From: a virus
Lineage: Duplodnaviria; Caudoviricetes
Length of the DNA stretch: 64,000 bases
Reading direction: 5' to 3' (one strand)
IMG/VR virus record: IMGVR_UViG_3300010163_000003
Span: 1 to 64,000 of that record
Shown here: piece by piece, positions 2,047 through 39,216 of the stretch
How positions within the stretch are numbered: the stretch's first letter is position 1
Layout: each line of letters opens with the position of its first letter
Notes under the pieces: generated by a model
What the model saw: only the letters and a program-made list of their open reading frames with translations
Told to the model about the DNA's origin: nothing
Databases searched by the model: none
Translations under genes and position numbers: made by a program

Positions 2047-4074
2047 ATGAGCATTCAAAGGACTGTAAGTAGGAACCCTGTTAGTGGCATTTCAAAAGCT
2101 ATTGATATGCTTGGCAGTAAAGAAGCCGCAAATCATGCGTGCGCTTATCGTATTCTTAATACAGGCATGATAAAGCTTACTGGCAAAGAAATCGTGCAAG
2201 CGGCAAAGGATTACCAGTTCATGCTGTCTCTCGGTGAAACGACCGAGTACACGATGGAGCAGGCTGTTCGCGTAGCTGAAATCGTAGGAGTTCCACAGAG
2301 CTTTATTGAGCGTGATGGTGGCCCCACTGAATTTGTCAGCAAACGCTATCGTTTCTTTGTTATGTCGGCGATAGCTGGAAGACCACATAAAGAACAGATA
2401 TCTATGGTTAAAAGTACTATGGATGAGCTAGAGTTTAGAGAAAATGGCATTTTCCTTCCGGCTGATAAGATAAGCGATTTCACCAACATCAAGAAAGCTG
2501 CAAATAGTTCTGCTGATGCTACAACCAGAGTGATAGATACTTCAGAGGACGGAATATCCCGAATGCTCATGGAACACGGGATTAACTCTGCAACACTCTT
2601 TGTTGGACAAGTAAGCTTTGATGAAACAGAACAGAATGCAATTGACGAAAAGAAACGTCGTTTGTTTACTGAAGGTTTTATCAATGAAGCTACTGGCAAA
2701 CATTATATGTTCAGTTTTCAATCTCCTTCATCGGTGCGTAAGGGTAATTTCACATTTGTTGAAGCTAATTCTTGGCGCGAAGTCGTATCTCTTTGGATAG
2801 AAATTAGTGGCTTACTCACCAAAGAAGAAATTGAAACCAAGACTCAGGAAGAGCTTCTTGATATCCTGTTGTCTAAGTCTGTTGGTCTTGCTAATGAAGA
2901 GCATGAAGTTGTAATTGCTAAATTGCTTGCAAGGCTTTCTACTCGCGGCTCTAATAGTTTCAGCCTTGACCGTAGGGCTGAAACTAAAGAGCAGAAAGAA
3001 GCTCTGACTTTCGTTAAAGGCATAAATGTATTCTATCCTAAGAAGGATATGAAAGTCAAGATTACTCGCGACTACTACACGTTTGGCGATGAAGATGGCG
3101 TTCTTAAGCTCATCACTGGCAAACAGCGTACAGTAACTCCGGGCGATGGACAGATGCTTGGAAGCTATAGACTCCATGCATATATTGCATTCATTCTCAA
3201 TCTCATTTCCTATACAGACTTCAAGCGCTTCTTGAAACTCTGGGAAGAAGCAAACGAAGATGATAGAAATGTTGAGGAAGGAAGCGAACTTGAGCGCCTT
3301 ATCCTTAAGATACCATGCATATTTCAGATAAGGCATGGTTCTAAGAAGGGCATTTGTGTTAGAACTAACCTCGAAAGAGTATCCAAGTATGACGCAATCG
3401 TTCCGCCTTCTGTTCGTAAGTTTGTAGAAGGTGAGTGGAAGAACTTCCCGCTCGAAATCTGCAACTGGATTAAGAAGACTCCTGCACAGCCCACAGTTAT
3501 GCTGAATAACCAATTTATCAGTGCTCTCGATATAGAGCCTGAGAATCTGCGTAAGGTTGCGGATTACTGGTTTGACATCATGAACAAATCTCTTACGTCA
3601 GAAACCGAAGCTATGAAGTTTCATAAGATGATTCGGGCTACTGATGAAGAGGATGAGCTTGATGAAGACCTCAGCAATAGCATGGTAAGCCATTGTATAT
3701 GGGCAAACTCTAAACTCATGCTTGATCGTCAGGTATGTAACTGGAGAAAAGACCAGTATACCAAAATAATTAACAACATGAGTATCGGACGTATAGGTGT
3801 ACCAGGAATCTATAGCTATATGGTATGTGACCCGCATGCGTTAGTAAACTTCTATCTTGAACTCAAAGACGAAGACAAGATGGAAGAACTTAAAGCTGGC
3901 GAGTACTACTATTGCGGTAAAGATAACTGCACAGCAGCCTTGTTTCGCTCTCCGCTAATTCATCCATTTGAAGTACAAAAAGTAACGTTGAAGTATCTCA
4001 GGGCATTCTTTGGCATTCAAGGCGCTATCATTTTTAACGTACATGATGGCAAGTGGGATGCAATGGGAGGAGCT
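2047..4074 (+). CDS. Single-subunit YonO-like (two-barrel, RdRP-related) DNA-dependent RNA polymerase, exon 1
   Basis: LFRSP motif; ends ...MGGA, and joined to exon 2 gives the catalytic GADFDGD; spliced product about 1252 aa. Confidence 0.8.
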
Positions 4075-4423
4075 AAGTAATATTGGCCCCATCAACAGTA
4101 ATGTTGTCCTGACCCAATAAACAGGAATTACTCCGTGAACCTAGAAATCTAGGGTGTGTAGTGTAAACTATGCTAACAGGGAAAGCTAAAAATGTATAAA
4201 TTCATGCTAACCTCTGTGCCAAGCTCTGTAAAGAGAAGGTGCATCGACTAACTGAAAGTACTTTGTTATTCGAGAAATACGATAGCACAGTCTTTCGAGA
4301 CCTATAAGGTGAAACTCCTTATGGGGTAGCGCGGAGCTTCTGCATATGGTAACAGTATGCAGAATGAAGATATAGTCAGATGAGTGAAGAGAAATCTGCG
4401 TTGCAAAAGCAATACACTCATTG
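4075..4423 (+). ncRNA. Group I intron (349 nt, no ORF) in RNA polymerase gene
   Basis: Exon ends in U (gct), intron ends in G; R element catcgacta 4242-4250; S element aagatatagtc 4367-4377; removal restores the frame. Confidence 0.88.
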
Positions 4424-6154
4424 GATTTTGACGGCGATATTTGTGCGATTGTACCAGAAGATACCGATATTGGTGCATTAATAGTGAATGCCGTTCGTGA
4501 TATTCCTTATGATATCTGGGAAGAAGCTCAAGTTGCTAAGAAAGTTAAATTCACTTATGACATGAAAGCATTGATTGAGCATCTCGTAAAGAACGCTAAA
4601 GTTGACCGTACTGGGCCTATAACTAATCATGCTATGAGGTCTAGCGAGATATCTAATCATTTTACTCAGATAGCTCGTACTTGCAGGAGAAACGGTATTG
4701 ATAATGTGTTCTTTAAAGAGCCTTGGTCATTCCCAGAAGTAGACGAGAAGTATGGCTGGTATGGTGATAAGTATCGCGGTCTTCTTTGGAAAGATAATAC
4801 CGGGAAACAGTTTATGACTGTACGTGGTATTGCAAAATGCAAGAAAGTAGGGGCTTTGTGGGTATGGGATAAAGGACCAGAAGCTTTTGTTGGCTGGAAA
4901 TCTGTCACGGAGATAGAAGAGGAAGCCAAAAAGTATATGGATAAAGTTAAAGTTCTTCGTCTGCTTCAAGGCCGTGAGATTGATGGAGCTAAGACTGGTG
5001 TATATGCCGAAGGGCCAGAAGGTCGGAATGACTTTACTGACGAAGTAAAAGTCATAACAACTCCGCATCAGATGCTTGCTCGTAGAGTAATCCTTAAGAA
5101 GGGCGAGTCTAAATCTGATAATCACAATTCCTTTGTTAGCTTTTCTCCCCTTGGCGACTTGTATGACTATGTACAGAGCCGTCGTCACGAGATAGAAGAT
5201 AAACTGGATAACGGCATAAACATGACACAATATCTCTTCACTTTGCTTACCAAAGATGAACTTCGCTGGTTTTACGCTAGATGGAATGTAACAAATCCTG
5301 AAACCAACGAAGTAAAAGATAAAAGCCTGCTTGAGATTATCGAAGACCACAAGAAAGTATATTCTCAAGCATGGGCTAATGCTCGTGAGCTTCCTGATGA
5401 AGACCGTATGACATTCGGGAAGAAGATTAAGGAAGAAGAGCACGAATGGTTGTTGAGCCTTACAAACTATACGAATACAACCAACAATAATCTTCCTCTT
5501 ACAGTAATTGCTACGGCTGCATATATAGTAGCTTATGACAAGAAGAATAACCAGAACACAGGTTTAGGTTATGGCTGGATTCTCGCCTCCACACTTCTTG
5601 ATGTATTTGCTCGTGGCAATAACAAGCGCCGTCTCGTAAGGCTTCCTCATAAGAACGTAGAATCTGCTGAAATCAAAGATGGCTGGTTGTACGTGAATGA
5701 GATGAAGCACATGAAAGTCAATAGCGTTGAAGGCCCAGTGGATGTAATCAATGTTAGTGGACAGAACTGTGCTATGCTTCAAAAGAAAGTAGATAATGCG
5801 GCTAGCACGGCTCCGTTTGTATTCCCAGGCGCAATAGACGCTAACGTTCTTTACAGTATAACCGCAAGCGGATTGGCTTATACTCAAGCGGAGAATGCGG
5901 TTAACTGGATTGATCTTGTGAGAGCCAATGGGGGTTACTTTGATATCATCATGAATAGCCAAAAACGTGTAGTTATGGTTATCAATGGTGAAGAAATTGG
6001 ATTCCCGATATTCAATTGTTCTCCCCTTCAGTCTCTGCACATGCTCAACAAGCGGGTTAAAGTTATGAATCTTGATAACCCGATTGATGATAAACTTGTT
6101 GCGTCTACCAAGACTGGTAAGAGCGTCAAAGACATCTGGGTTGCAATAGCGTAA
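4424..6154 (+). CDS. YonO-like RNA polymerase, exon 2
   Basis: Begins DFDGDICAIV; later EIDGAKTG motif of the RdRP/YonO family. Confidence 0.8.
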   Translation, partial: DFDGDICAIVPEDTDIGALIVNAVRDIPYDIWEEAQVAKKVKFTYDMKALIEHLVKNAKVDRTGPITNHAMRSSEISNHFTQIARTCRRNGIDNVFFKEPWSFPEVDEKYGWYGDKYRGLLWKDNTGKQFMTVRGIAKCKKVGALWVWDKGPEAFVGWKSVTEIEEEAKKYMDKVKVLRLLQGREIDGAKTGVYAEGPEGRNDFTDEVKVITTPHQMLARRVILKKGESKSDNHNSFVSFSPLGDLYDYVQSRRHEIEDKLDNGINMTQYLFTLLTKDELRWFYARWNVTNPETNEVKDKSLLEIIEDHKKVYSQAWANARELPDEDRMTFGKKIKEEEHEWLLSLTNYTNTTNNNLPLTVIATAAYIVAYDKKNNQNTGLGYGWILASTLLDVFARGNNKRRLVRLPHKNVESAEIKDGWLYVNEMKHMKVNSVEGPVDVINVSGQNCAMLQKKVDNAASTAPFVFPGAIDANVLYSITASGLAYTQAENAVNWIDLVRANGGYFDIIMNSQKRVVMVINGEEIGFPIFNCSPLQSLHMLNKRVKVMNLDNPIDDKLVASTKTGKSVKDIWVAIA

Positions 6155-17862: not shown

Positions 17863-18000
17863 GTCGGTATAGCTTAAGGTAAAGCAATTGTTTATTTTTA
17901 AACAATATTGAAAGGATAATAATTCCAAAGGGCTTTCATATGTTTAACTTCATTGTATAATAAACAATGTCTAACAGTTCAATTCTGTTTACCGACACCA
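17863..18000 (+). ncRNA. tRNA-like RNA with 62-nt insertion in the anticodon loop
   Basis: Perfect acceptor gtcggta/taccgac+ACCA, D-arm, 10-bp anticodon stem, T-arm aacag-ttcaatt-ctgtt. Confidence 0.65.
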
Positions 18001-20950: not shown

Positions 20951-21490
20951 ATGGCTAGTTATCCAGGCGCACGTAGAATATGGAATAAACATAGCGAATT
21001 CGCTGGCAAAGCTGATGCTGACAAGGTTCAAAAAGAAATTGACCTTATTGCATCTCAAGACCCTAACGGCAAATGTACCGATGAAGGATTGGTAGACTAT
21101 GCAAGAAACAATCCTAACAGCGAATCTCATAACTGCTTCGAGTGGAACGACACAACTGCGGCAGAAAAATACAGATTACATCAAGCTGCTCGTATTAAAG
21201 TTTCCATCATAACTGTATACGACAAAACTGACAAAGATACTGAAAGCAGCGTCAATCAAAATACGAGCGTCCCAATTCAGGTAGTTACTAACCATGCTTT
21301 AAAGACACCAGGAGATGGGCATAAGAATATTGAATTCATTCTTCAGGACAAGAATGATTCAAAAGTTCTTGACGAACAAATGAAGCAAGCATGCATTCAG
21401 TTCATGGATAATTTTGAACGTAGATGGTGTCTTGCCCCATCATTCAATCAAGTATTCCCCAAACTACAAGCATTCGTAAACTCGTTATAA
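20951..21490 (+). CDS. Conserved phage protein (H.CFEW.D..AAEKYRLHQA motif), candidate accessory of the Cas7-like locus
   Basis: gaggag RBS; motif recognised by eye; sits immediately upstream of the pentamer array. Confidence 0.65.
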   Translation: MASYPGARRIWNKHSEFAGKADADKVQKEIDLIASQDPNGKCTDEGLVDYARNNPNSESHNCFEWNDTTAAEKYRLHQAARIKVSIITVYDKTDKDTESSVNQNTSVPIQVVTNHALKTPGDGHKNIEFILQDKNDSKVLDEQMKQACIQFMDNFERRWCLAPSFNQVFPKLQAFVNSL

Positions 21491-21530
21491 AAGTATGGGG
21501 CGCTAACGCGCCCCTACTGAATTATAAATT

Positions 21531-21791
21531 ACATGCCAAAATAGGCAATCTTAAATTATCATAGCACACGCTAACATATTATAATATAATACAAAAAATT
21601 AAATCAATAAGCGAGGTCATGACCTCAATACACCAAATGTTACGATAATAAGATTTCAACATAAACTACTTTATTGTAATTTATAATATTGATGTTCGTG
21701 GCTTCGCTTATTGATTTAATAATCAATAAATTTAGATCAAACTATCCTAAATGAAGCAAAAATATGATATTATATTATACCGTAAAATAGA
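21531..21791 (+). repeat. Pentamer (NYA-NN) array part 1: three modules (21531-21595, 21625-21685, 21732-21791), module 2 enclosed by a long stem
   Basis: A at every 5th base, e.g. tta ga|tca aa|cta tc|cta aa|tga ag|caa aa|ata tg|ata tt|ata tt|ata cc|gta aa|ata ga; stem 21598-21630/21687-21720 with G-U pairs. Confidence 0.85.
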
Positions 21792-21801
21792 GGATTTAAA
21801 T

Positions 21802-22011
21802 ATGGATGAAAACGAAAATGTAACTATTTGTTGTGATTGTCAATATTGTTGCGACAAATATAGTTTCCCATTACCAAATGATATACCCGAATTTAACGGA
21901 AATAATTTTCTTCTTAAAGCATATTGTTGTTGTATGGAAGATTGTGAGCTATACGGCAAACGTATTGATATGCTTGGGATTACTTCCTGTGAATATTTTA
22001 AAGAATTATAG
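21802..22011 (+). CDS. Small Cys-rich hypothetical protein inside the array
   Basis: gagg RBS before ATG 21802; CCDC.YCC, CCC..DC. Confidence 0.55.
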   Translation: MDENENVTICCDCQYCCDKYSFPLPNDIPEFNGNNFLLKAYCCCMEDCELYGKRIDMLGITSCEYFKEL

Positions 22012-22024
22012 GAGAGATAGTTAG

Positions 22025-22561
22025 TTGATATATAAAACAACAGTTTATATTCCAAGTGGAACGATTGAGAGAGTAAACAGTTTACTTTGTGCTCTTTCTT
22101 TTAAAGATCTTTCTGAAAAAGAAATTAGCAAATATAAGTTTAGAACCAACTCATGTGAAACTATTTTTAATGTGAAGTTCGAAGATAATAGCACATTAAC
22201 ATATGAATTATGTTCTGGCGATTCTAATTATTATGACAATGTTGTATGGAGAAGCGCTGATGGGATTGAAGAAACAATAGAATGTTCTTTCAGATTATTC
22301 AATGAGATAGAAATTGAAATCAATTCAAACAAATATATTGTTAATCTCATAGAAAATCCTCCTGAACATGGCAAAAAAAGATTAAACGTTACTGTGAATT
22401 GTTTAGCTACTTATAATAGTAGCATACTCGTTCCATATACTATGAATCTTGAAGAAGCTATACAATATGCTGAAAAACATATTGATGATATACCCCTTGG
22501 TTTATTGGAATATGTGTCAGACAGTGACAGTATCGATGAAGAAAATTGCAGTTTCGATTAA
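22025..22561 (+). CDS. Hypothetical protein inside the array
   Basis: ggag RBS, TTG start, 178 aa. Confidence 0.55.
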   Translation: MIYKTTVYIPSGTIERVNSLLCALSFKDLSEKEISKYKFRTNSCETIFNVKFEDNSTLTYELCSGDSNYYDNVVWRSADGIEETIECSFRLFNEIEIEINSNKYIVNLIENPPEHGKKRLNVTVNCLATYNSSILVPYTMNLEEAIQYAEKHIDDIPLGLLEYVSDSDSIDEENCSFD

Positions 22562-22607
22562 TAAGCTTTAGCTAGCTTTTAGCTAATTTTCTAGCTAAAA
22601 GCTAGCT

Positions 22608-23680
22608 TTATAGCTTCAAATATTGACTTAAGTATTGTAAGTCGATAAACGAGATTTAGTCTCAATACATGCTATACTATCATAATGTATAACACTATAT
22701 CACACGACAATATATAATATCTTAAGTCAATATTTGAAGCTATAAGTTTCAAAACAGGCCAAAATAGTCTAGCTTAGAATACTATCAGCGTACTATAGGA
22801 TATATTAAAACATTTTATGGTCTCAAATATTGACTTTAAGTCAATGACATCCTATTACAACCCATCTCAACTTAGCTTATAATAGCATAAAATAATATAT
22901 AGTAATATTATTACTTAAAGTCAATATTTGAGACCATAAAGGTCAGCAGATTACAAACTAAGCTTAATTTAGGGTAAATTAAAGTAGGACAATTTTAGCA
23001 TATGCTAGGATATTTTACTTTATGGTTTCAAATATTAGCTTTAAGCTAAAATACAAGCTATGCAATCCTAAAATAAATTAGCACAATCTATGCTATTATA
23101 TGACACTATAAAATATTTAGCTTAAGTCAATATTTGAAACCATAAATTTTTATGGTTTAAGACAAAACGCCATAAAATACGATAGCACATGTAATCATAT
23201 GCAACCATAGGACATGCTATCATAAGATATTTTACTTTATGGTTTCAAATATTGACTTAAGTTAATAACAGAAAAGAGATGTATAATAATGACTATATTA
23301 CTGACTTATCTGGTTTTTGTAATAAAAAATTCCCAGTTGAAAAACATTTTTATGTTAAAACTAATATTTAAGGTCATAAACCTTATCAGAATGTAATGTA
23401 ATCTATCGCATCTCATGACAACATATGGCACCTTAACATAATATAAAACAGTTTATGATCTTAAATATTAGTTTTAGCTAATAATAACAAACAAAAATAC
23501 TATATGATAAAACACTTCATTATAATTTAGACCAAAGTAAAAATAATACAAAGTATTTTATATGTAGACACCGCTACTTTTACAAAAGTAGCGGTGTGTG
23601 CTTATAAAAGCAAGCTTAAAGTAGGTCATTTAAAAATAGTTTAGCACATCCCACCTTAAGCTAATATAGCACATAATATC
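22608..23680 (+). repeat. Pentamer (NYA-NN) array part 2: nine modules separated by alternating-orientation ~26-bp repeats
   Basis: Modules 22662-22721, 22749-22814, 22842-22906, 22943-23019, 23053-23117, 23172-23236, 23383-23452, 23487-23562, 23611-23680; repeat consensus tttatggtYtcaaatattgacttaag. Confidence 0.9.
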
Positions 23681-23714
23681 ATGATATTTTAATTATTATT
23701 TGGAGGAATTAAAA

Positions 23715-24446
23715 ATGGCCACAAAAACTAAAGACGAAAACAACACTCCTATTGAAGAAAAGCTTACTCCGGGCACAGTTATCAAAATGAAACCCTTTGT
23801 TAAGGAACGACTTCAGGTAACTATTTGCAGCGATGACCACTGCGATCTTATTTTGAATAAGATGACACAAGAAGCTATTGAAGAAATCAAAAGCACACAA
23901 ACTAAGACGGCTAAGGGCACAAAGAAAGCGGTCAATATGTGGCAAAGGCTTATTGAGGGCCTGCATTGGATGGACAAGTATACTGGCCCGTATGTAGATG
24001 ATAAAGGCAAAATTCTGCATACAGAAGAAGCATACTATGACCTACTTAAAACCAATCGTATCGGTTACGATGCAAGTGGCATCAAGAAGGGTCTCTGCGA
24101 TGCGGCTGTTCGTGTACTTGGCGAATCTAAATCTACCATTATCAATGCCAATCTTCAGGTTATTCCTGAGAAGAGAAATCTCGTTCAGATTGAATTCAAC
24201 GAGAGTGATATTGATGAATCCGTAATCACTAACTGGAAAGGCTCTGCTTTCATTACCTATCGTACTATCCTGCGCGGATGGTCTAGTACATTTGCTGTAG
24301 AATATCTGCCAGATAATTTGTCTCGTGATCAGGTTATCGAGATGTTCCAGGCGATGGGATTTAGCGGCGGTCTTGGCGCACATCGTGTTGGGCTTAAAGG
24401 CGGCACTCATGGTAAATTCCATGTAGATAAGGTAATGCAACTCTAA
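23715..24446 (+). CDS. Stand-alone Cas7/RAMP-like RNA-binding protein (Vipr-like candidate), 243 aa
   Basis: ggagg RBS; internal IGYDASGIKKGLCDAA helix, YR..L.GW...F.VEY strand, C-terminal Gly-rich loop GFSGGLGAHR..LKGGTHGKFHV. Confidence 0.7.
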   Translation: MATKTKDENNTPIEEKLTPGTVIKMKPFVKERLQVTICSDDHCDLILNKMTQEAIEEIKSTQTKTAKGTKKAVNMWQRLIEGLHWMDKYTGPYVDDKGKILHTEEAYYDLLKTNRIGYDASGIKKGLCDAAVRVLGESKSTIINANLQVIPEKRNLVQIEFNESDIDESVITNWKGSAFITYRTILRGWSSTFAVEYLPDNLSRDQVIEMFQAMGFSGGLGAHRVGLKGGTHGKFHVDKVMQL

Positions 24447-24465: not shown

Positions 24466-25428
24466 ATGGCTAAGAAGTATATTGATTCTCAAGCCGTTAT
24501 AGACAACCTAGATACTAACGGTGACGAGCTTACAGACAAGAGTAAAAGACTTGAAGTAATAAATAAATGCGGTTTAACCCAAAGACTTCAAGAAGTACTG
24601 ATTACGCCAGCTATGGCAACCGGACTTCTTCGCCTTAATCATGGTACTCGTGTTCGTCATGGCAATAAAGAAAAGATGAAATTTGACATGACTCATGGCC
24701 TTTGGGGAACCTGTGATAGCATGATTATGTTTAGTCCTAATGGTAATCTTGTTAATGGCAAAATGATATTAGAGGCTATACAAGAAAGCGGAATTGCACA
24801 AAGACTTGTGGTTATGACAGGCGTTGTACCGCATGTAGAAATAGATACTGGCGCTAATAGAACTCCGTTTGAAGTCATAACCATGTATAGAATTGGTGGC
24901 AGTAATTATGATGCTATACGTACTCAAAAAGTTATATCCGCTATTGGTAGCATGCTGCGTCGTAAATGTAGGCATGGCATGCGAATAGAAAATAGCGATT
25001 ATTGTCGGCTTTTTGAAACGTATAAAGATACCCTGCTTGAACTCCGTGATGTGTTAAATACATATCAGGGAGATGCTTATATCAATGCAGCTTTGATAGC
25101 AGCAAGATTAGATGGCGTTGATATTGGAGACATTTCTAGTTTTAAAGCTGCTTATTGTAAAATGGGTAGAAGTTTAAACGTGGATGATGCTCCAGTCAAC
25201 GTTTTTTGGGATTATTATCATGAAATACTCAGTGGATGCAGCACGAATCATTTTAAAGATAAGAAATTTGCAGCTACACAAACTGCCTTATATGCTTATC
25301 TGAATCAAACTACAATGACAAAGAAAGATTATATGCACTCCAGCTCTAAAGCGATTCATGATTACGATATTACGTGGCTGAATCAAACTATAAATGGAGG
25401 TTATGATTCTACAAAGTTCCATCTATAA
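24466..25428 (+). CDS. ParB/Srx-like N-terminal domain protein with degenerate active-site motif
   Basis: ITPAMA..LL..N...R, G.W, I.F...G.L.NGKMILEAI..SG, IDTG..R pattern; DGQHR replaced by NGKMI. Confidence 0.55.
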   Translation: MAKKYIDSQAVIDNLDTNGDELTDKSKRLEVINKCGLTQRLQEVLITPAMATGLLRLNHGTRVRHGNKEKMKFDMTHGLWGTCDSMIMFSPNGNLVNGKMILEAIQESGIAQRLVVMTGVVPHVEIDTGANRTPFEVITMYRIGGSNYDAIRTQKVISAIGSMLRRKCRHGMRIENSDYCRLFETYKDTLLELRDVLNTYQGDAYINAALIAARLDGVDIGDISSFKAAYCKMGRSLNVDDAPVNVFWDYYHEILSGCSTNHFKDKKFAATQTALYAYLNQTTMTKKDYMHSSSKAIHDYDITWLNQTINGGYDSTKFHL

Positions 25429-29326: not shown

Positions 29327-31135
29327 TTGTTAGTAGTTACTCAACTTACTAATGGTAATCTTAGCATAAAATCTGATTACTATTATAAAGATAGAATAAA
29401 ACGAATACCATCGGCACAATTTGATCCTGAACGTAAAGAATGGGTCATATTGAAAGAGTATTTGGCAAATCTGGAACAAGAGTTCGCAGGAGAACTTGTA
29501 TATAAAACACCCAGGTGGATCATTAGAGGCGATCCTATGCCAGATTACTCTGATATGTACAAAATTACAAATAATAATATAACTCTTCCAAATTTAAAGA
29601 TAGAACCATATGATTATCAAAAGTATGGAATTAAGTTTATGATTGATAAAATTCAAAAACATAATTTCGTACTTAATGCAGACGATGTAGGCTTGGGAAA
29701 GACTTTTCAAGCAATTGCAGTTATAAAATGGTTTATGGAGAACTATCTATTTAGGAAAATTCTTATTGTTTGTAAAAAATCTATAAAGAAACAATGGATG
29801 GATGAATTCAGTAAATTTACTGATATTCACGACAATATTCCTATTGTTTATACAAAAACTACCCCTAAAAAGAGAGCAGCAGCATATGCTGTTATCGACA
29901 ATTCTCCACAAGGAATATTGATAACTAATTATCATACATTCCTTAATGATACAGATAAAATTAAAAGTTTAGGCTTTGATATGTGTGTCATTGATGAAGT
30001 TCATTCAGTGAAAGCACGTAATGGTAAGCTTAATAATAATATCTCTCAGGTTGTTCGTGGTAAACCTACTATATTTCTTACTGGCACTCCTATTATGTCT
30101 AGACCAGAAGATATATTTGGCATAGTTCAAATGGTTAATCGCAACTATTTCGGCTCATATTTTGATTTCAGCAGAAGATTTTTAACTACTGACTTATATA
30201 GCAAATTTGGACCAAAAATAGTAGGAGCAAAGAATCTTGATGAGCTTAGAAATAAAGTTCAAGATATTGTTATTAGGCGAACAGAATATGAGGTAGCAGT
30301 ACAATTACCTGAAGTTATTTTGCAACAGAAAGATTGTGAAATGGACCCCACTCAGGTTAAGATTGCTAAAGCTATACATGCCAAAAGCGAATTTATAATG
30401 GATGGAATGGAGTCTTTAATGACAGAAGCTGCTAAGCCTAATGTCGATAAAGATGTTATTGCTAATAAATTAAAAGTACTTGACGCGCAATCTAAAGCAT
30501 TGATTGCTGCTCGTCAAGCTGTAGCAAATGATCCTCGTTTATTCCTATCTAGTAATTCTATAGCGATGAGAAAAGATTATGGGATTTTAATTCCTAAATC
30601 TTATACAATGTCTCCTAAAACAGAATCCATATTAGAAACAGTGGAGGATATCGTTAGTAATGGAGATAAAGTTATCTTGTTTACTAAGTTTAGAACTTGT
30701 GCTAGAATGGTAAAACAAGATATAGAGCAGAATCTTAAAACAAATGCATTGTTATATACTGGTGGCGAAAACGATGATCAGCGCAATGACGCGCTTGATT
30801 TATTCCGTAATACTTCTACTTATAATATATTAATAGGTACAGAAGCATTAGCAGAAGGAGTAAATCTTCAGGTTGCTAAATATGTTATAAATATAGACCA
30901 ACCTGACACATTTGCTATAAAGACGCAACGTATAGGTAGAGCAAGACGTGTAGGATCTCAATTTGATAATGTAATTGTATACGATATGATTACTAAATCA
31001 GAGGGGGGAGTTATTTCTAAAGACGAAGAAAGACTCCGTAATATAACTAACAATGAAGACCTTACAGATGCTCTTGTAACGCTTAATGAAGCTCAGCAAA
31101 AGGCAATTATTGAAGCTATGAAAGAGGAACAATAA
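29327..31135 (+). CDS. SNF2-family (DEAD/H) helicase
   Basis: DDVGLGKT, IDEVH, LTGTP, EGVNLQ, QRIGRARRVG. Confidence 0.9.
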   Translation: MLVVTQLTNGNLSIKSDYYYKDRIKRIPSAQFDPERKEWVILKEYLANLEQEFAGELVYKTPRWIIRGDPMPDYSDMYKITNNNITLPNLKIEPYDYQKYGIKFMIDKIQKHNFVLNADDVGLGKTFQAIAVIKWFMENYLFRKILIVCKKSIKKQWMDEFSKFTDIHDNIPIVYTKTTPKKRAAAYAVIDNSPQGILITNYHTFLNDTDKIKSLGFDMCVIDEVHSVKARNGKLNNNISQVVRGKPTIFLTGTPIMSRPEDIFGIVQMVNRNYFGSYFDFSRRFLTTDLYSKFGPKIVGAKNLDELRNKVQDIVIRRTEYEVAVQLPEVILQQKDCEMDPTQVKIAKAIHAKSEFIMDGMESLMTEAAKPNVDKDVIANKLKVLDAQSKALIAARQAVANDPRLFLSSNSIAMRKDYGILIPKSYTMSPKTESILETVEDIVSNGDKVILFTKFRTCARMVKQDIEQNLKTNALLYTGGENDDQRNDALDLFRNTSTYNILIGTEALAEGVNLQVAKYVINIDQPDTFAIKTQRIGRARRVGSQFDNVIVYDMITKSEGGVISKDEERLRNITNNEDLTDALVTLNEAQQKAIIEAMKEEQ

Positions 31136-33313: not shown

Positions 33314-34714
33314 ATGAACGACTTCAATTTTGACGAATTATTTAGTGGCCTTAATCTTGATTCGTCTAACACTAACACTACTACCACAACGATAACACAG
33401 ACGCAACCGCAAATCGTTGCAAAGCCTAAAACAGAGGAGGCGAAAATGAATGACACAAATAAATCGTCATTGTTGCAATCTGCACAGGATAAAATGCAGC
33501 GTATTGCGGCGGAGCTTAATGATAGCTATGTAGAACGTGATGTTCTTATTAATCTTATGCAGATAGCTATTGCAACAGGCACTAATTTGCTTATGCTTGG
33601 CCCTCCGGGAACTGCAAAGAGTCAGATTACTCATGACCTGTGCTCTCGTATTGATCAGGCTAATTACTTTCAGTGGATGCTGAATAAGACCACTGACCCG
33701 TCTGAGATTCTCGGATCTTTTTCCGTTAAAGAGCTGGAGAATGATAAGTTTCTTCGTATCACTACAGGTAAGCTTCCTGAAGCACATATTGGATTTCTTG
33801 ATGAAGTATACAAGAGTAACGCTCCTACTTTGAATGCTCTGTTGACTATCATGAATGAACATATCTTCTACAATGATGGCAAAGCTGTTGATATACCTCT
33901 TATCTCTTTAATTGGTGCATCAAATGAACCGCCAGAGGATGAGACTTTGCTTGCTCTGCATGATAGGTTTATCTTCAGAATTAATCTGGAGTATGTTCAT
34001 GACGTAGCAAACAAGAAGCGTATGCATTCTAACTATCTTGACAAGAGGGCTGGTTTGCTTGGACTTGCAGGGCGTAGTTCTATTACTCTTAATGAAATTA
34101 AAGCGTTGCAGGAAGCGACTAATACCGTCAAGGTATCTAAAGATATCATCAACAAATTCATTCGCCTTATCAGTACCCTGGAACGTCAGGCAATTCATGT
34201 ATCTGATAGGCGGCAGAATGAGTGTCTTAAAGTCATGCAGGGTAGCGCCGTTCTTGCGGGACGTAACTCTGTAACGCTTGATGACTTCAAGCCATTGATA
34301 TATGTCTTGTGGGAACAAGAAAGTCACATCCCGATTATCGAAACCGAAATTACAAAGATCATTAATCCGTATGACGACAAGTTCAAAGACATTCGGATAA
34401 ACTTCGAGAGTATTAAGACTAACATTGATACTACTAACGATCCGAATGAAAAGACCAAGAAAGCAATAGAGTCTAAAATGGCGATTGAAAAGCTTGTTTC
34501 TAAAACCAATAAACTTATCAATGATGCCGCTAAGAACAATCGTGACGTAACAGAGTTTACCAACTTCCGTAATAGTATGGTACAATTTATGCAAGAATTG
34601 CTTAACAGTACTCTTGGTACTACTTTTTCTCCATCCAATAAAACTAATGGCACAGTAACCGCTGATAACTCCACTTCTATTATAGGAGAAGATGAAGATA
34701 TCATACCATTCTAA
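33314..34714 (+). CDS. MoxR/RavA-family AAA+ ATPase
   Basis: LLMLGPPGTAKS, FLDEVYK, LNALL..MNE, ASNE.P, AL.DRF. Confidence 0.9.
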   Translation: MNDFNFDELFSGLNLDSSNTNTTTTTITQTQPQIVAKPKTEEAKMNDTNKSSLLQSAQDKMQRIAAELNDSYVERDVLINLMQIAIATGTNLLMLGPPGTAKSQITHDLCSRIDQANYFQWMLNKTTDPSEILGSFSVKELENDKFLRITTGKLPEAHIGFLDEVYKSNAPTLNALLTIMNEHIFYNDGKAVDIPLISLIGASNEPPEDETLLALHDRFIFRINLEYVHDVANKKRMHSNYLDKRAGLLGLAGRSSITLNEIKALQEATNTVKVSKDIINKFIRLISTLERQAIHVSDRRQNECLKVMQGSAVLAGRNSVTLDDFKPLIYVLWEQESHIPIIETEITKIINPYDDKFKDIRINFESIKTNIDTTNDPNEKTKKAIESKMAIEKLVSKTNKLINDAAKNNRDVTEFTNFRNSMVQFMQELLNSTLGTTFSPSNKTNGTVTADNSTSIIGEDEDIIPF

Positions 34715-34729
34715 AAGGGAGGTATACGT

Positions 34730-36466
34730 ATGGCTGTAGATGACTTGTTCGCAAATATAAATTTGTGGGAAGATGTGTCTGAAGAAGAAAAAGCACAAGA
34801 GTTAGAACGACTTCGTGTTCGAGACAGTAATGCAACTATAAAAGAAAACCTTAATGGTAAGTCCACACAAGAAGTGCTTGGGCTTACCAATCTTAAAAAG
34901 GCTATCGTGTATAAATTCAATGCCATTAAGTGTGATATTACTGACGTTGAAGATTATGAAGATATTCTTGCAGAATCTCCAGTAATGCAAAACACCGTAG
35001 CTAGGGGAGAATCATTGCTTCCTACATTTAGGTATCTTCATCAGGATTTCTATCTTAGTCTCGTTAAATACTCGCCAGAGCTAAATCCTGGTGTAGAAAT
35101 GCATGCCTCTACAAGAATGAATCGTGGCATATTCTCTAAGATTATTAATACTCCAGAATTTATTAAACTTAGAAAGATATGCAGGCTTGATAGATTCAGT
35201 GCAGCTTTAGGGGCAGAGATCCTTGGACAAGAAGCTATTGAAATTATAGAAGATTTAATAGCTAAAACTAAAGACGCAGAAGAACAGCGTAAAGCATTGC
35301 AAAAACTTATGGAAAAAGAACAAGAGATTGATGACATTCTTGAAGAACAAGAATCTCTTGACGATATCCTTAAGCAAATGCAACAATCTGGCGGATCACC
35401 TGAAGATCTCCAAGAAGTGTCTGATATGATGAATGAGAATGGACACACGCTTGAAGAAGCTAAAGCTATTGCTAATGCATTGGCTCAACAGTGCGATGAT
35501 CTTATTCAAGAAGATGGCGATGATATAGTTAATGCTGCCAATGCATTAGGCCGAGCAATGACTCAAGCTACCACAGAAATACAAGAAGTGTCTCAATATT
35601 GTGCAACATGGGGACTCGGTGAAGGCGGAGATGGTAAAGTAGCATTCCAAAATAAACGAGAGGCTATCGAAAAGATACGTCGTTCCACTAAACTTAAGAA
35701 AATGACTGATGCTATTGGTCGTTTTAAAGAATCTGCAATCACTGAACAGAAAAAGAAAGCCAAAGATGGAGCTGTTGAAATACACTCCACTGAATTGGGG
35801 GATAAAATACAAGACACTCTCCCATCAGAACGTATGGGGTTGGTACGCCAAGAAACAAAGCTTGACTTCTATCGAAAATTACAAGAGAAACAGCTTCTTG
35901 TGTACAGCAAGAGAGCACACAAGCAAAAGAACAAAGGACCAATCATTGTATGCGTTGATACATCTGGGTCTATGAGTGGTGACTCAGAGATATGGAGTAA
36001 AGCAATGACTATTGGAGTTCTTGAAATTGCTGAAATGCAGAAAAGAGACTTTGCTTGTATAATATATAGCTCTTATGCAGATGAACCTATTATTATACGC
36101 AAAGGAGAAACTGCTCCTGAAAAGATTATTCAGTGCGCAGAAAAGTTTCATAATGGTGGAACAAATTTTCAGGAGCCATTAGAGAAAGCAATAGAATTAA
36201 TTAACACGTCTACCTTTAAAAATGCTGATATATTATTTATATCCGATGGCGACTGTAGTATATCAGATCCTTTCTTGCGTAGATATAAGAAAATTAAGGA
36301 AGAAAAAGAGTTTAATACTCAGGGCGTGCTAATCAATCTTGGGCGAGGTCATTCATACGATGGAACCATGAAAGAGTTCTGTGATAAAATCACTCTTGTT
36401 AGTGATGTAGCAGATTTAAAGGATAGTGACTCTGATATAAACAAATCCATTTTTGGTTCTCTTTAA
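34730..36466 (+). CDS. VWA-domain (ViaA-like) partner protein
   Basis: GPIIVCVDTSGSM MIDAS, GGTNF, ADILFISDG. Confidence 0.88.
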   Translation: MAVDDLFANINLWEDVSEEEKAQELERLRVRDSNATIKENLNGKSTQEVLGLTNLKKAIVYKFNAIKCDITDVEDYEDILAESPVMQNTVARGESLLPTFRYLHQDFYLSLVKYSPELNPGVEMHASTRMNRGIFSKIINTPEFIKLRKICRLDRFSAALGAEILGQEAIEIIEDLIAKTKDAEEQRKALQKLMEKEQEIDDILEEQESLDDILKQMQQSGGSPEDLQEVSDMMNENGHTLEEAKAIANALAQQCDDLIQEDGDDIVNAANALGRAMTQATTEIQEVSQYCATWGLGEGGDGKVAFQNKREAIEKIRRSTKLKKMTDAIGRFKESAITEQKKKAKDGAVEIHSTELGDKIQDTLPSERMGLVRQETKLDFYRKLQEKQLLVYSKRAHKQKNKGPIIVCVDTSGSMSGDSEIWSKAMTIGVLEIAEMQKRDFACIIYSSYADEPIIIRKGETAPEKIIQCAEKFHNGGTNFQEPLEKAIELINTSTFKNADILFISDGDCSISDPFLRRYKKIKEEKEFNTQGVLINLGRGHSYDGTMKEFCDKITLVSDVADLKDSDSDINKSIFGSL

Positions 36467-38352: not shown

Positions 38353-39216
38353 ATGGATAATGTATCTAGGTTATGTCCTCATTGTGGCTCTGCTCAATTT
38401 ATGGCATTGAAACAATACGCATGTATTGTACAGGTGGATGGTCTTGGTCTTAACGATGTTCCAATTATAAATATCGTTAAAGAAGGCCCAAAGGGTCAGT
38501 ATGAGGTTAAAATATTTAAATGTCTTAAGTGTAAACATGACATTGATGTCAATGACTTGATTACTGGTGTCAAGTGTAAGCATTGCGGTAAGACTTGTTC
38601 TCCAGATGAAATTGACGAGAATGGCATCTGTGATACATGCAATATGATTATTAACAATCCTGCACTCGCAAATGCTTCTGCTGCGGATCTTCTTAAGCTT
38701 CTTGCGAAAGCATATCGTAAGAATAGTTCTGTGTCACAAAAGATTGAAAAGAAAGTAGAACATGCTACTCAGATAGAACAAAAGCTTAATGAAGAAAACA
38801 CAGCAGCAGACGACATTTTAAATGGAGTGACACCACAAGATGCAATACCACAGAAGAGGACTAGAAAGAAAGCTACGAGGAAAAATCCAGCGCCACAGGA
38901 GAATCAAGAAACAACGCAGGAAAGTAACGAAGCTGATGGGCATGTCGTATATGTACCTGATATACCCGCCGAAAGCGTCGTTCAAGAGAACAATGACAGT
39001 CAAGTACAACCTCCGACGCAGCCTGAGAATATACCAATAAATACTGAAGAAGCTCAAGCTGCTATAGCATCTGAACAAGATGCTCCGTTCCCTGATATTC
39101 CAACTCCGAGTATTCCAGACATGCCAACAGATGCTCAACAGTTTACTAATGCAGAGCCACCAGCACCTAGCGGATTCAATATGTTTGATGCTAGTGACGA
39201 TGATGAACCCTTCTAA
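38353..39216 (+). CDS. Multi-Zn-ribbon protein with acidic Pro-rich tail ending DDDEPF
   Basis: Four CxxC motifs. Confidence 0.6.
   Translation: MDNVSRLCPHCGSAQFMALKQYACIVQVDGLGLNDVPIINIVKEGPKGQYEVKIFKCLKCKHDIDVNDLITGVKCKHCGKTCSPDEIDENGICDTCNMIINNPALANASAADLLKLLAKAYRKNSSVSQKIEKKVEHATQIEQKLNEENTAADDILNGVTPQDAIPQKRTRKKATRKNPAPQENQETTQESNEADGHVVYVPDIPAESVVQENNDSQVQPPTQPENIPINTEEAQAAIASEQDAPFPDIPTPSIPDMPTDAQQFTNAEPPAPSGFNMFDASDDDEPF

What the first reader, a model, noticed from the sequence alone, without database searches (positions are those of the whole stretch)
22608..23477. Array punctuation by alternating-orientation ~26-bp repeats that form long RNA stems
Seen: forward copies at 22608-22632, 22814-22840, 23019-23050, 23236-23261 and a diverged one at 23451-23477. 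Reverse copies lie at 22721-22745, 22914-22940, 23116-23146 and a diverged one at 23355-23381. Each pair co-varies (gctt/aagc, ggtct/agacc, ggttt/aaacc). G-U pairs in the 23355/23451 stem and in the separate 21598-21720 stem work only for a plus-strand RNA. Guides lie both inside loops and between stems. Inference: 25-30 bp duplexes are RNase III-type substrates, so one cut per stem would release unit guides without Cas6. The repeats might also drive array expansion or shuffling.
Basis: partly seen in the sequence, partly recalled or inferred. Interest (0 to 1): 0.75.

Follow-up and report, generated by a model that had tools for sequence, protein, structure and literature searches.

The report
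Hairpin-punctuated phage VIPR guide-RNA array
A 218-kb gut phage carries a CRISPR-like VIPR guide-RNA array whose guide units are separated by repeats of alternating orientation; these fold into about 29-bp RNA helices, a layout absent from the VIPR papers I read and a plausible but untested cutting signal for a double-strand RNase.

Summary
Nine ~25-30-nt arms alternate strictly (FRFRFRFRF) at 22608-23478 and form perfect or near-perfect stems. A tenth stem lies at 21598-21720. Eight related phage loci have the same layout: 40 stems, median 29 bp, with loops of about 70 nt. Stems pair with their own partner (20.8 of 22 positions) far better than with other arms (9.4). G.U exceeds A.C 92 to 33, so a plus-strand RNA is under selection.

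The arms punctuate a VIPR array, a system described in 2026 preprints. The next gene (23700-24446) is a RAMP/Cas7 fold whose best PDB sequence match is SUSP1 Vipr. Every inter-arm segment is a tract of 12-16 pentamers n-Y-A-N-N. Reading NN with a one-nucleotide skip matches conserved codons of rival phages' DNA polymerase A and a Cro/C1-type regulator.

Two features are new relative to the VIPR papers: the YA anchor instead of GGY, and punctuation by inverted-repeat helices.

RNase III cutting is plausible, since a mid-stem cut would give units of about 99 nt and no ribozyme was found.

The scan noted VIPR loci before on other DNA (e1-349360). It also noted a helix-closed layout in another genome (e1-5708455). 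I did not check either.

The parts
21528..21603 (+). pentamer guide tract ('pre') of the upstream mini-array
   Evidence: 16 in-phase A at period 5
21598..21720 (+). separate stem (arms 21598-21622 / 21696-21720) enclosing a weaker tract
   Evidence: 22 WC plus 3 G.U, 0 A.C, loop of 73 nt
21729..21799 (+). pentamer guide tract ('post0')
   Evidence: score 15
22570..22607 (+). 16-bp perfect palindromic hairpin just before the first arm
   Evidence: (I22)
22608..22632 (+). arm F1
   Evidence: 25/25 with R1 (I8)
22664..22729 (+). guide tract L1, in the loop of F1:R1
   Evidence: score 14
22721..22745 (+). arm R1
   Evidence: I8
22749..22813 (+). guide tract S1, with a 1-nt register slip
   Evidence: NN of 11 units equal codon positions 1-2 of KGKVAELALGY (PolA motif B) in 112 of 114 viral PolA genes
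22814..22841 (+). arm F2
   Evidence: 28/28 with R2 (I5)
22839..22904 (+). guide tract L2, in the loop of F2:R2
   Evidence: score 14
22913..22940 (+). arm R2
   Evidence: I5
22940..22991 (+). guide tract S2
   Evidence: the first 7 units match GALTAMG, 4 codons after motif B in the same PolA genes; short match, moderate support
23019..23051 (+). arm F3, the odd arm
   Evidence: pairs less well with R3 (21 WC of 23) or R2 than R3 does with F4
23050..23115 (+). guide tract L3
   Evidence: 13 of 13 in-phase A
23116..23146 (+). arm R3
   Evidence: 29 WC plus 1 G.U with F4
23174..23239 (+). guide tract S3, in the loop of R3:F4
   Evidence: score 14
23236..23265 (+). arm F4
23262..23354 (+). non-periodic spacer L4 between F4 and R4
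   Evidence: only 9 of 19 in-phase A
23354..23381 (+). arm R4 (diverged)
   Evidence: 26 WC plus 2 G.U with F5
23380..23455 (+). guide tract L5, in the loop of R4:F5
   Evidence: the antisense NN read matches (TF)IVGHVHDEIIIE, PolA motif C
23451..23478 (+). arm F5 (diverged)
23484..23545 (+). guide tract S5
   Evidence: matches YNKLWKLLIDKKM of a Cro/C1-type HTH gene in the PolA-bearing phages
23556..23609 (+). GC-containing hairpin, possibly a terminator or boundary
   Evidence: I12
23608..23678 (+). pentamer tract S6 in the leader of the RAMP gene
   Evidence: score 15
23700..24446 (+). vipr-like RAMP gene; the likely start is the ATG at 23715
   Evidence: AF2 pLDDT 84. Foldseek top hits are all Csm3/Cmr4/Cas7 (E 3.8e-7); VIA Z 10.5. 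The best PDB sequence hit is SUSP1 Vipr, E 0.003
24466..25428 (+). downstream gene, a candidate accessory (vap-like) gene of unknown family
   Evidence: phrog_5931 only. Position is conserved in relatives but sequence is only 13-26% identical

Best explanation
The region is the guide-RNA array of a phage VIPR system, that is, a Vipr RAMP protein plus vrRNAs.

Each segment between arms is one vrRNA guide tract of 12-16 pentamers n-Y-A-N-N. The nYA part would be held by the protein. The NN pairs read target DNA with one nucleotide skipped, usually the codon wobble base. The targets are conserved codons of rival 40-60-kb phages of gut Firmicutes.

The ~25-30-nt arms are the array's punctuation. 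Because they alternate in orientation, neighbouring arms pair in the plus-strand precursor RNA into ~29-bp helices.

Most likely mechanism (inferred, not shown): a host double-strand-specific endoribonuclease of the RNase III type cuts each helix. One staggered cut per helix frees both the loop-borne guide and the guides between helices. The products would be units of about 100 nt, each carrying half-arms at both ends. Vipr then coats each unit.

Shown here: the anatomy, the strand, the selection for pairing, the Vipr kinship and the target code. Inferred: the cleavage, the enzyme and the order of events.
For: Stems:
- The stems are real and partner-specific.
- In 40 non-overlapping stems from 8 loci, an arm pairs with its own partner at 20.8 of 22 positions and with other partners at 9.4. 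G.U is 92 against A.C 33.
- F/R alternation is strict in 5 arrays of 5-15 arms.
- The plus-strand fold has z = -18.8.

VIPR kinship:
- The fold is RAMP.
- A profile of the protein family hits SUSP1 Vipr first in the PDB.
- In the pentamer lattice, position 3 is A in 928 of 930 units and position 2 is Y in 86%. High-scoring tracts occur only at this locus in the genome and in every related locus.
- The one-nucleotide-skip read hits PolA motifs B and C and other genes, with 0 hits in shuffled controls.
- The published VIPR rules are the same.

Processing:
- Stem length is tightly kept (IQR 27-31 bp). Loop plus stem has a median of 99 nt, against the ~100-nt vrRNAs in the paper.
- Published VIPR arrays of other types separate units with hammerhead ribozymes, so units do need separating. 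No Rfam family matches here at E<=1.
- A Vipr filament has 6 protomers per 72 A of pitch. A 13-14-unit tract coated by protein would therefore be about 160 A long and could not stay closed by a stem. This last point is inference.
Against: - No RNA-end data exist.
- The phage has no RNase III gene, and the host is not identified.
- The arm sequence (core TCAAATATTGGCTTTA) is conserved across phages whose Vipr is only 60-75% identical. RNase III alone would not require that.
- The pentamer register runs into the downstream arm. A short conserved hairpin follows each R arm. Both hint at protein-recognised handles.
- Either pairing register is possible for most arms, so the structure in vivo is not fixed by sequence alone.
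Confidence: 0.5

Rival explanations
1. The arms are not RNase III sites. They are the conserved handles or tails of the vrRNAs, the counterpart of the SUSP1 3' tail. They set the register and the limits of Vipr filament assembly and protect the RNA. Units are separated by single-strand RNases or not at all. The long-range pairing is then a storage or stability form of the naked RNA.
For: - Arm sequence is conserved beyond pairing.
- The lattice is phase-locked to the downstream arm: offset -2 for F in 12 of 17 cases and -1 for R in 8 of 14.
- A conserved mini-hairpin follows R arms.
- SUSP1 vrRNAs have an invariable structured 3' tail.
Against: - Two complementary kinds of tail (F and R) would have to serve the same protein.
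- Strong partner-specific co-variation and a kept length of 27-31 bp show that the full duplex is selected, not just a handle.
- Distant relatives keep the duplex while changing most of its sequence.
Confidence: 0.27
2. A dedicated phage protein recognises the conserved arm duplex and cuts it, doing Cas6-like work. Candidates are the uncharacterised neighbours: the 86-aa Cys-rich protein (21751-22011), the 178-aa protein (22025-22561) and the 320-aa protein (24466-25428).
For: - The arm sequence is conserved.
- Genes without any family hit sit inside and beside the arrays, and their placement is conserved in relatives.
Against: No nuclease or RAMP signature was found in them. The downstream protein evolves fast. 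I did not fold them.
Confidence: 0.13
3. The inverted repeats act at the DNA level, for recombination, inversion or duplication of guide cassettes, or as cruciforms. RNA pairing is then incidental.
For: Homologous guides occupy different array positions in different phages, for example the KLWKLLID guide in the main array here and in the upstream mini-array of L012 and L016.
Against: - The G.U over A.C excess and the plus-strand-only A lattice show single-strand selection.
- Inversion between adjacent arms would flip a guide and destroy its lattice, and no flipped tract is seen.
Confidence: 0.06
4. The arms are chance inverted repeats or miniature transposable elements.
For: Terminal inverted repeats of 25-28 nt flank ~70-90-nt segments.
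Against: - 0 matches are expected by chance.
- The arms are confined to one locus.
- They are conserved in position next to vipr in 8 phage loci.
- Scans of genome contigs and viral contigs gave only three isolated single matches with no arrays.
Confidence: 0.01

Closest known systems
VIPR systems (Vipr RAMP plus vrRNA), type II exemplar Escherichia phage SUSP1; bioRxiv 10.64898/2026.04.26.720920, 10.64898/2026.04.26.720927 and 10.64898/2026.10.15.759431
   Same: - The system is phage-encoded.
- A single small RAMP gene is flanked by long non-coding arrays.
- Guide tracts have 9-16 pentamers with a fixed trinucleotide and a free NN.
- The target is read with a one-nucleotide skip that falls on wobble positions.
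- Targets lie on both strands.
- Targets are rival phages' regulators and replication genes.
- Units are about 100 nt.
   Different: - The anchor is n-Y-A, not GGY. The papers list only the G-anchored variants NNNGG, YNNNG and NNNNG.
- The G-loop residues that read GGY in SUSP1 (D-W-R) are A-H-R here.
- The protein is larger (243 vs about 200 aa).
- There is no pseudoknot tail. Instead, units are bounded by arms of alternating orientation that form ~29-bp helices.
- The arrays are larger, with about 12 tracts.
Hammerhead-ribozyme-interspersed and staggered VIPR arrays (same paper, figs S18-S20)
   Same: An inter-unit element serves to separate vrRNAs from a multi-unit precursor.
   Different: No ribozyme is found here (Rfam, E<=1). 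The inter-unit element is half of a long duplex and would need a trans-acting dsRNA nuclease.
Type II CRISPR maturation: tracrRNA anti-repeat pairs with each repeat and host RNase III cuts the duplex (established knowledge, Deltcheva et al. 2011)
   Same: Repeat and anti-repeat duplexes of about 25 bp mark each guide boundary. A host enzyme stands in for a dedicated Cas6.
   Different: Here the anti-repeat is in cis, as every second repeat of the same array. The effector is a RAMP filament, not Cas9.
RNase III processing stems of rRNA operons and of phage T7 / SP82 early polycistronic RNAs (established knowledge)
   Same: Long-range inverted repeats enclose a functional RNA and are cut to release it. 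Phages are known to rely on host RNase III.
   Different: The enclosed RNAs are ~70-nt guide tracts. The stems are tandem, and each arm can pair with either neighbour.
Canonical CRISPR arrays processed by Cas6
   Same: Repeats alternate with guide-bearing segments beside a Cas7-family gene.
   Different: - The repeats are inverted relative to each other, not direct.
- The 'spacers' carry an internal 5-nt lattice and match targets only at 2 of 3 positions.
- No cas1, cas2 or cas6 was recognised among the neighbouring genes I scanned.

Membership tests
VIPR | Vipr protein: a minimal RAMP with an RRM core, G-loop and thumb | tested here: met
   AF2 model pLDDT 84. Foldseek top hits are all Cas7/Csm3/Cmr4, best E 3.8e-7. 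VIA Z 10.5 and 10.2. The family profile's best PDB hit is SUSP1 Vipr, E 0.003, over the strand-helix-G-loop region.
VIPR | vrRNA made of tandem pentanucleotide repeats with fixed positions and a hypervariable NN | tested here: met
   Position 3 is A in 928 of 930 units, position 2 is Y in 86%, and positions 4-5 are near uniform. There are 9 tracts of score 12-16 here against a genome background of about 10 or less, apart from one score-13 run inside a gene at 38795-38875. The tracts are present in all 8 related loci.
VIPR | GGY (or G-anchored) repeat consensus | tested here: not met
   The fixed part is n-Y-A. G is rare at these positions. The paper lists YNNGG, NNNGG, YNNNG and NNNNG only.
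VIPR | NN read against the target with a one-nucleotide skip, on wobble positions, on either strand | tested here: met
   The matches run over 11-18 consecutive units, perfect or with a few half-matched units, to PolA codons in sense and antisense. Shuffled controls gave 0 hits. The position after NN differs at 4 of 11 units between two phages while NN differs at 1 of 22 positions.
VIPR | Targets are competing mobile elements | tested here: met
   The targets are PolA, a Cro/C1 HTH gene, an Enc34-type SSB, an IrrE-like peptidase, a DUF2800 nuclease and a ParB-methylase of 40-60-kb phages of gut Firmicutes. No match was found to the phage's own genome.
VIPR | Vipr-vrRNA filament forms and binds dsDNA | not testable with these tools
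   This needs biochemistry or cryo-EM.
VIPR type II (SUSP1-like) | Invariable ~40-60-nt 3' tail with a hairpin and pseudoknot after each tract | tested here: not met
   Tracts are followed by F or R arms that pair with the neighbouring arm. I did not look for a pseudoknot, so none is shown.
CRISPR array | Direct repeats of one orientation | tested here: not met
   F/R alternation is strict in 5 arrays.
CRISPR array | Adjacent cas1/cas2 adaptation genes and a cas6 processing gene | tested here: inconclusive
   Pfam and PHROG scans of 17 nearby genes show none. Unknown proteins remain unfolded.
RNase III substrate | Continuous dsRNA of about two helical turns or more | tested here: met
   Predicted stems have a median of 29 bp, IQR 27-31, in 40 cases. 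Stems in the window are 25-30 bp without bulges.
RNase III substrate | Staggered cleavage inside the stem in vivo, dependent on rnc | not testable with these tools
The phage lacks PF14622. The host is unknown.

The most novel reading that the evidence does not exclude
VIPR arrays of this clade mature through cis repeat/anti-repeat helices cut by host RNase III. This would be a third way to separate vrRNAs, beside structured tails and hammerhead ribozymes, and it converges on the tracrRNA logic of type II CRISPR. The same clade uses a different protein-RNA anchor: n-Y-A read by an A-H-R G-loop instead of GGY read by D-W-R. That would show the noncontiguous code is portable to other anchors. Because either neighbour can pair, loading of one guide could free or lock its neighbours, giving ordered or competitive guide maturation.
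Probability: 0.4. Interest if true: 0.7.

Novelty: new variant of a known kind. Interest (0 to 1): 0.55.

Why it matters
VIPR was described only in 2026. How multi-guide vrRNA precursors are cut into units is known for a few layouts at most.

This clade adds two things. The first is an array whose punctuation is half of a long RNA duplex, which points to a host dsRNA nuclease and parallels tracrRNA-dependent CRISPR maturation. The second is an adenine-anchored pentamer with matching changes in the Vipr G-loop.

Both are directly testable. They bear on how portable and engineerable the noncontiguous code is, on how to find VIPR arrays that GGY-based callers miss, and on the proposed path from VIPR to CRISPR repeats.

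The locus also documents large gut phages aiming many guides at the polymerase, SSB and lysogeny-switch genes of smaller rival phages.

Tried and rejected
No read mapping was possible and I did not try another route.
- Promoters: sigma-70-like sites are not enriched in the region, 22 found against 18 expected. The start of the precursor is unknown.
- Known RNA families: nothing in 21400-23800 at E<=1. The window-wide gathering scan gave only tRNAs and a group I intron.
- DNA similarity of the region to 50,697 phage records: none.
- The arm consensus in genome contigs and viral contigs gave only three isolated single matches without arrays or vipr, so they look like chance.
- Self-targeting: no guide matches the phage's own genome above shuffled controls.
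- Close-relative scan of viral contigs with the RAMP protein: none. Relatives came from the protein search and contig look-ups instead.
- A distant homologue (44% identity, L018) has no pentamer tracts upstream.
- Neighbour proteins: the Atlas search and homologue search were uninformative.
- Literature and database searches that found nothing: '5-nt periodicity' terms, Cas7-like/phage/filament terms, peptide strings of the motif, and a PDB search with the 14-aa decoded peptide.
- Ideas considered and dropped once the Vipr kinship and the code were seen: a TRAP-like ring binding, a replication origin, phased DNA bending, MITEs, and a CRISPR-repeat mimic (anti-CRISPR RNA).
- Reading the base after NN as a true third codon base is not supported. 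It matches target third positions in only 32-37% of cases, and some tracts then contain stops.

Full report
**What is there**

The window is the first 64 kb of a 218,431-bp phage record with direct terminal repeats. In it, almost all long ORFs lie on the plus strand. Between a 178-aa gene ending at 22561 and a 248-aa gene starting at 23700 lies 1.1 kb without ORFs.

A consensus 25-mer with up to 3 mismatches hits 6 times, against none in 100 shuffles. The family occurs nowhere else in the genome.

F1:R1 is 25/25 and F2:R2 is 28/28. R4:F5 has 26 Watson-Crick pairs plus 2 G.U. The unrelated stem at 21598-21720 has 22 pairs plus 3 G.U. None of these has an A.C opposition.

There is one correction. 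R3 is a better partner for F4 (29 plus 1 G.U of 30) than for F3. The minimum-energy fold of the plus strand (z = -18.8) uses F1:R1, F2:R2, R3:F4 and R4:F5 and leaves F3 unpaired.

**What the arms punctuate**

- Every inter-arm segment except 23262-23354 is a tract of 12-16 units n-Y-A-N-N.
- Over 930 units from 8 loci, position 3 is A in 928 and position 2 is a pyrimidine in 86%.
- Position 1 is A-rich, and positions 4-5 are nearly uniform.
- Tracts of this quality occur only at 21528-23678, apart from one score-13 run inside a gene. They always have A on the plus strand.

**The neighbouring protein**

The 248-aa protein has 71 homologues, many on ~200-kb contigs. Its AlphaFold model has pLDDT 84. 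The model matches only Cas7-family RAMPs at the top: Foldseek E 3.8e-7 for Csm3, and VIA-align Z 10.5 and 10.2. A profile of the family finds the SUSP1 Vipr protein as its best PDB sequence match, E 0.003, over the G-loop region.

**The code**

I read N4N5 of successive units as codon positions 1-2.

- Tract 22751-22802 gives KGKVAELALGY. The homologous tract of another phage (L012) gives KGKIAELALGYG. NN differs at 1 of 22 positions between the two, while the following base differs at 4 of 11.
- A degenerate DNA pattern for this peptide finds at least 114 viral contigs. All hits lie in ~650-aa ORFs. The two I scanned with Pfam are family-A DNA polymerases.
- The same proteins carry IVGHVHDE(L/I)IIE, which tract 23385-23450 encodes in antisense.
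- Tracts of relatives hit YGPKFVENI.QAV of the same polymerase.
- Further tracts hit a Cro/C1-type HTH gene, an Enc34-type SSB, an IrrE-like peptidase, a DUF2800 nuclease and a ParB-methylase of the same 40-60-kb phages.
- In the PolA-only scan shuffled tracts gave no hit. In the wider scan shuffles gave only bare 7-unit seeds, well below the 11-18-unit matches reported here.
- The phage's own genome is not matched.
- The polymerase family belongs to phages of Oscillospiraceae, Ruminococcus, Lachnospiraceae, Streptococcus and similar hosts.

**This is a known system**

A literature search found three 2026 preprints on VIPR. They describe:

- a phage-encoded ancestral RAMP (Vipr);
- vrRNAs of 9-16 GGY/NN pentamers;
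- a one-nucleotide skip that falls on wobble positions;
- targets on either DNA strand;
- targets in rival mobile elements;
- transcripts of about 100 nt.

The system as a whole is therefore already described, and my decoding only re-derives its rules for this locus.

Two things are not in those papers.

1. The fixed trinucleotide here is n-Y-A. The papers list only G-anchored variants. The SUSP1 G-loop residues that read GGY (D177, W178, R179) align with the nearly invariant A-H-R of this family.
2. The array layouts they list are tails with a pseudoknot, staggered arrays, hammerhead-interspersed arrays and single vrRNAs. The words 'RNase III', 'inverted' and 'stem' do not occur in the discovery paper. 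Term searches of the other two papers ('RNase', 'hairpin', and 'inverted repeat' in one of them) found no mention of RNase III or of stem-forming repeats.

**Are the stems selected, and on which strand?**

All eight related loci with upstream sequence carry the same design.

- Alternation is strict in arrays of 5, 6, 9, 11 and 15 arms.
- In 40 non-overlapping stems, an arm pairs with its own partner at 20.8 of 22 positions and with other arms of the same array at 9.4.
- More distant phages (L010, L015, L017) keep the helix while most of its sequence differs. They retain only a GGCTTTAA end and a UU/UU internal loop.
- Among transition mismatches, G.U on the plus strand outnumbers A.C 92 to 33, p about 1e-7.

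Stem length is tightly kept (median 29 bp, IQR 27-31). Loops have a median of 70.5 nt.

**How it most likely works**

Units of VIPR arrays must be separated, since other types use ribozymes for this. No ribozyme or other Rfam family is present here.

A double-strand cut in each helix would free the loop guide and both flanking guides. The resulting units would have a median of 99 nt, close to the published vrRNA size. A Vipr filament has six protomers per 72 A of pitch. A coated 13-14-unit tract would therefore be about 160 A long and could not remain closed by a stem. So the stems must act on naked precursor RNA and be cut or melted before loading; this is inference.

RNase III needs about two turns of dsRNA (established knowledge), and the stems provide that. 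The phage has no RNase III gene, so a host enzyme would be used, as for tracrRNA:pre-crRNA and for T7 or SP82 early RNAs (established knowledge). I put this at about 0.5.

**What speaks for rivals**

- The arm core is conserved far beyond what pairing requires.
- The pentamer register continues into the downstream arm. The last in-phase A is the A of the arm's TTATG in 12 of 17 F cases.
- Each R arm is followed by a short hairpin of the form GRCC-AUAA-GGYC.

These features suggest that the arms, or their halves, are also handles read by Vipr or another protein. Alternatively, a dedicated phage nuclease may do the cutting.

A purely DNA-level role is unlikely given the strand asymmetries. Still, homologous guides at different array positions in different phages leave room for repeat-mediated cassette exchange.

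**Limits**

- No transcript ends could be examined.
- The host is unknown.
- Promoter scans are uninformative.
- I did not fold the neighbouring proteins of unknown family.

**Earlier notes of this scan**

The scan had described a SUSP1-like VIPR locus (e1-349360) and a helix-closed VIPR guide layout in another genome (e1-5708455). I did not examine those loci.

Noticed in passing
window 24360-24390 (protein residues about 219-224): The G-loop of the Vipr-like protein reads G-G-L-G-A-H-R where SUSP1 Vipr has G-V-G-D-W-R. In SUSP1, D, W and R contact G1, G2 and Y3. The change goes together with the n-Y-A anchor.
   Followed up: partly
window 22940-22955, 23146-23162, 23381-23390; also L008 and L014 after each R arm: A short hairpin follows every R arm: the last 4-5 nt of the arm, an AUAA-type loop, then a GGYC(U) copy. 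It overlaps the first pentamers of the next tract.
   Followed up: partly
L010:1835-3476, L015:2767-3906, L017:3238-3884: More distant relatives use a second class of arm. It ends in ATTGGCTTTAA, has a conserved UU/UU internal loop 8 bp from that end, and has an otherwise freely co-varying stem. L016 mixes both classes.
   Followed up: partly
window 23608-23678: A full pentamer tract sits in the leader of the vipr-like gene, after a GC hairpin at 23556-23609. It could be a guide, or an autoregulatory binding site for the protein.
   Followed up: no
window 23262-23354: This is the only inter-arm segment without the A lattice. It contains a possible 35-codon ORF from the ATG at 23290, preceded by a weak purine-rich stretch.
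   Followed up: no
window 22749-22991: The tracts on either side of hairpin F2:R2 match neighbouring parts of the same polymerase gene: motif B, then GALTAMG four codons later. The second match is only 7 units long.
   Followed up: partly
window 21751-22561: Two genes without any family hit lie between the mini-array and the main array: an 86-aa Cys-rich protein and a 178-aa protein. Relatives also have two genes there, but of other sizes (60 and 388 aa in L012).
   Followed up: no
window 4065-4401: Rfam finds a group I intron (52 bits) between ORFs 2047-4080 and 4421-6154, so this is probably one interrupted gene.
   Followed up: no
window 17863-17997: Rfam reports a tRNA match spanning 135 nt that ARAGORN does not call. 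It is possibly an intron-containing or degenerate tRNA.
   Followed up: no
window 29327-31135 and 33314-36466: An SNF2-family helicase lies 5 kb downstream of vipr, and SNF2/ResIII genes are also near vipr in L009 and L010. A MoxR AAA+ and VWA gene pair follows.
   Followed up: no
window 38795-38875: This is the only other period-5 A run of comparable score (13) in the genome. It lies inside ORF 38353-39216.
   Followed up: no
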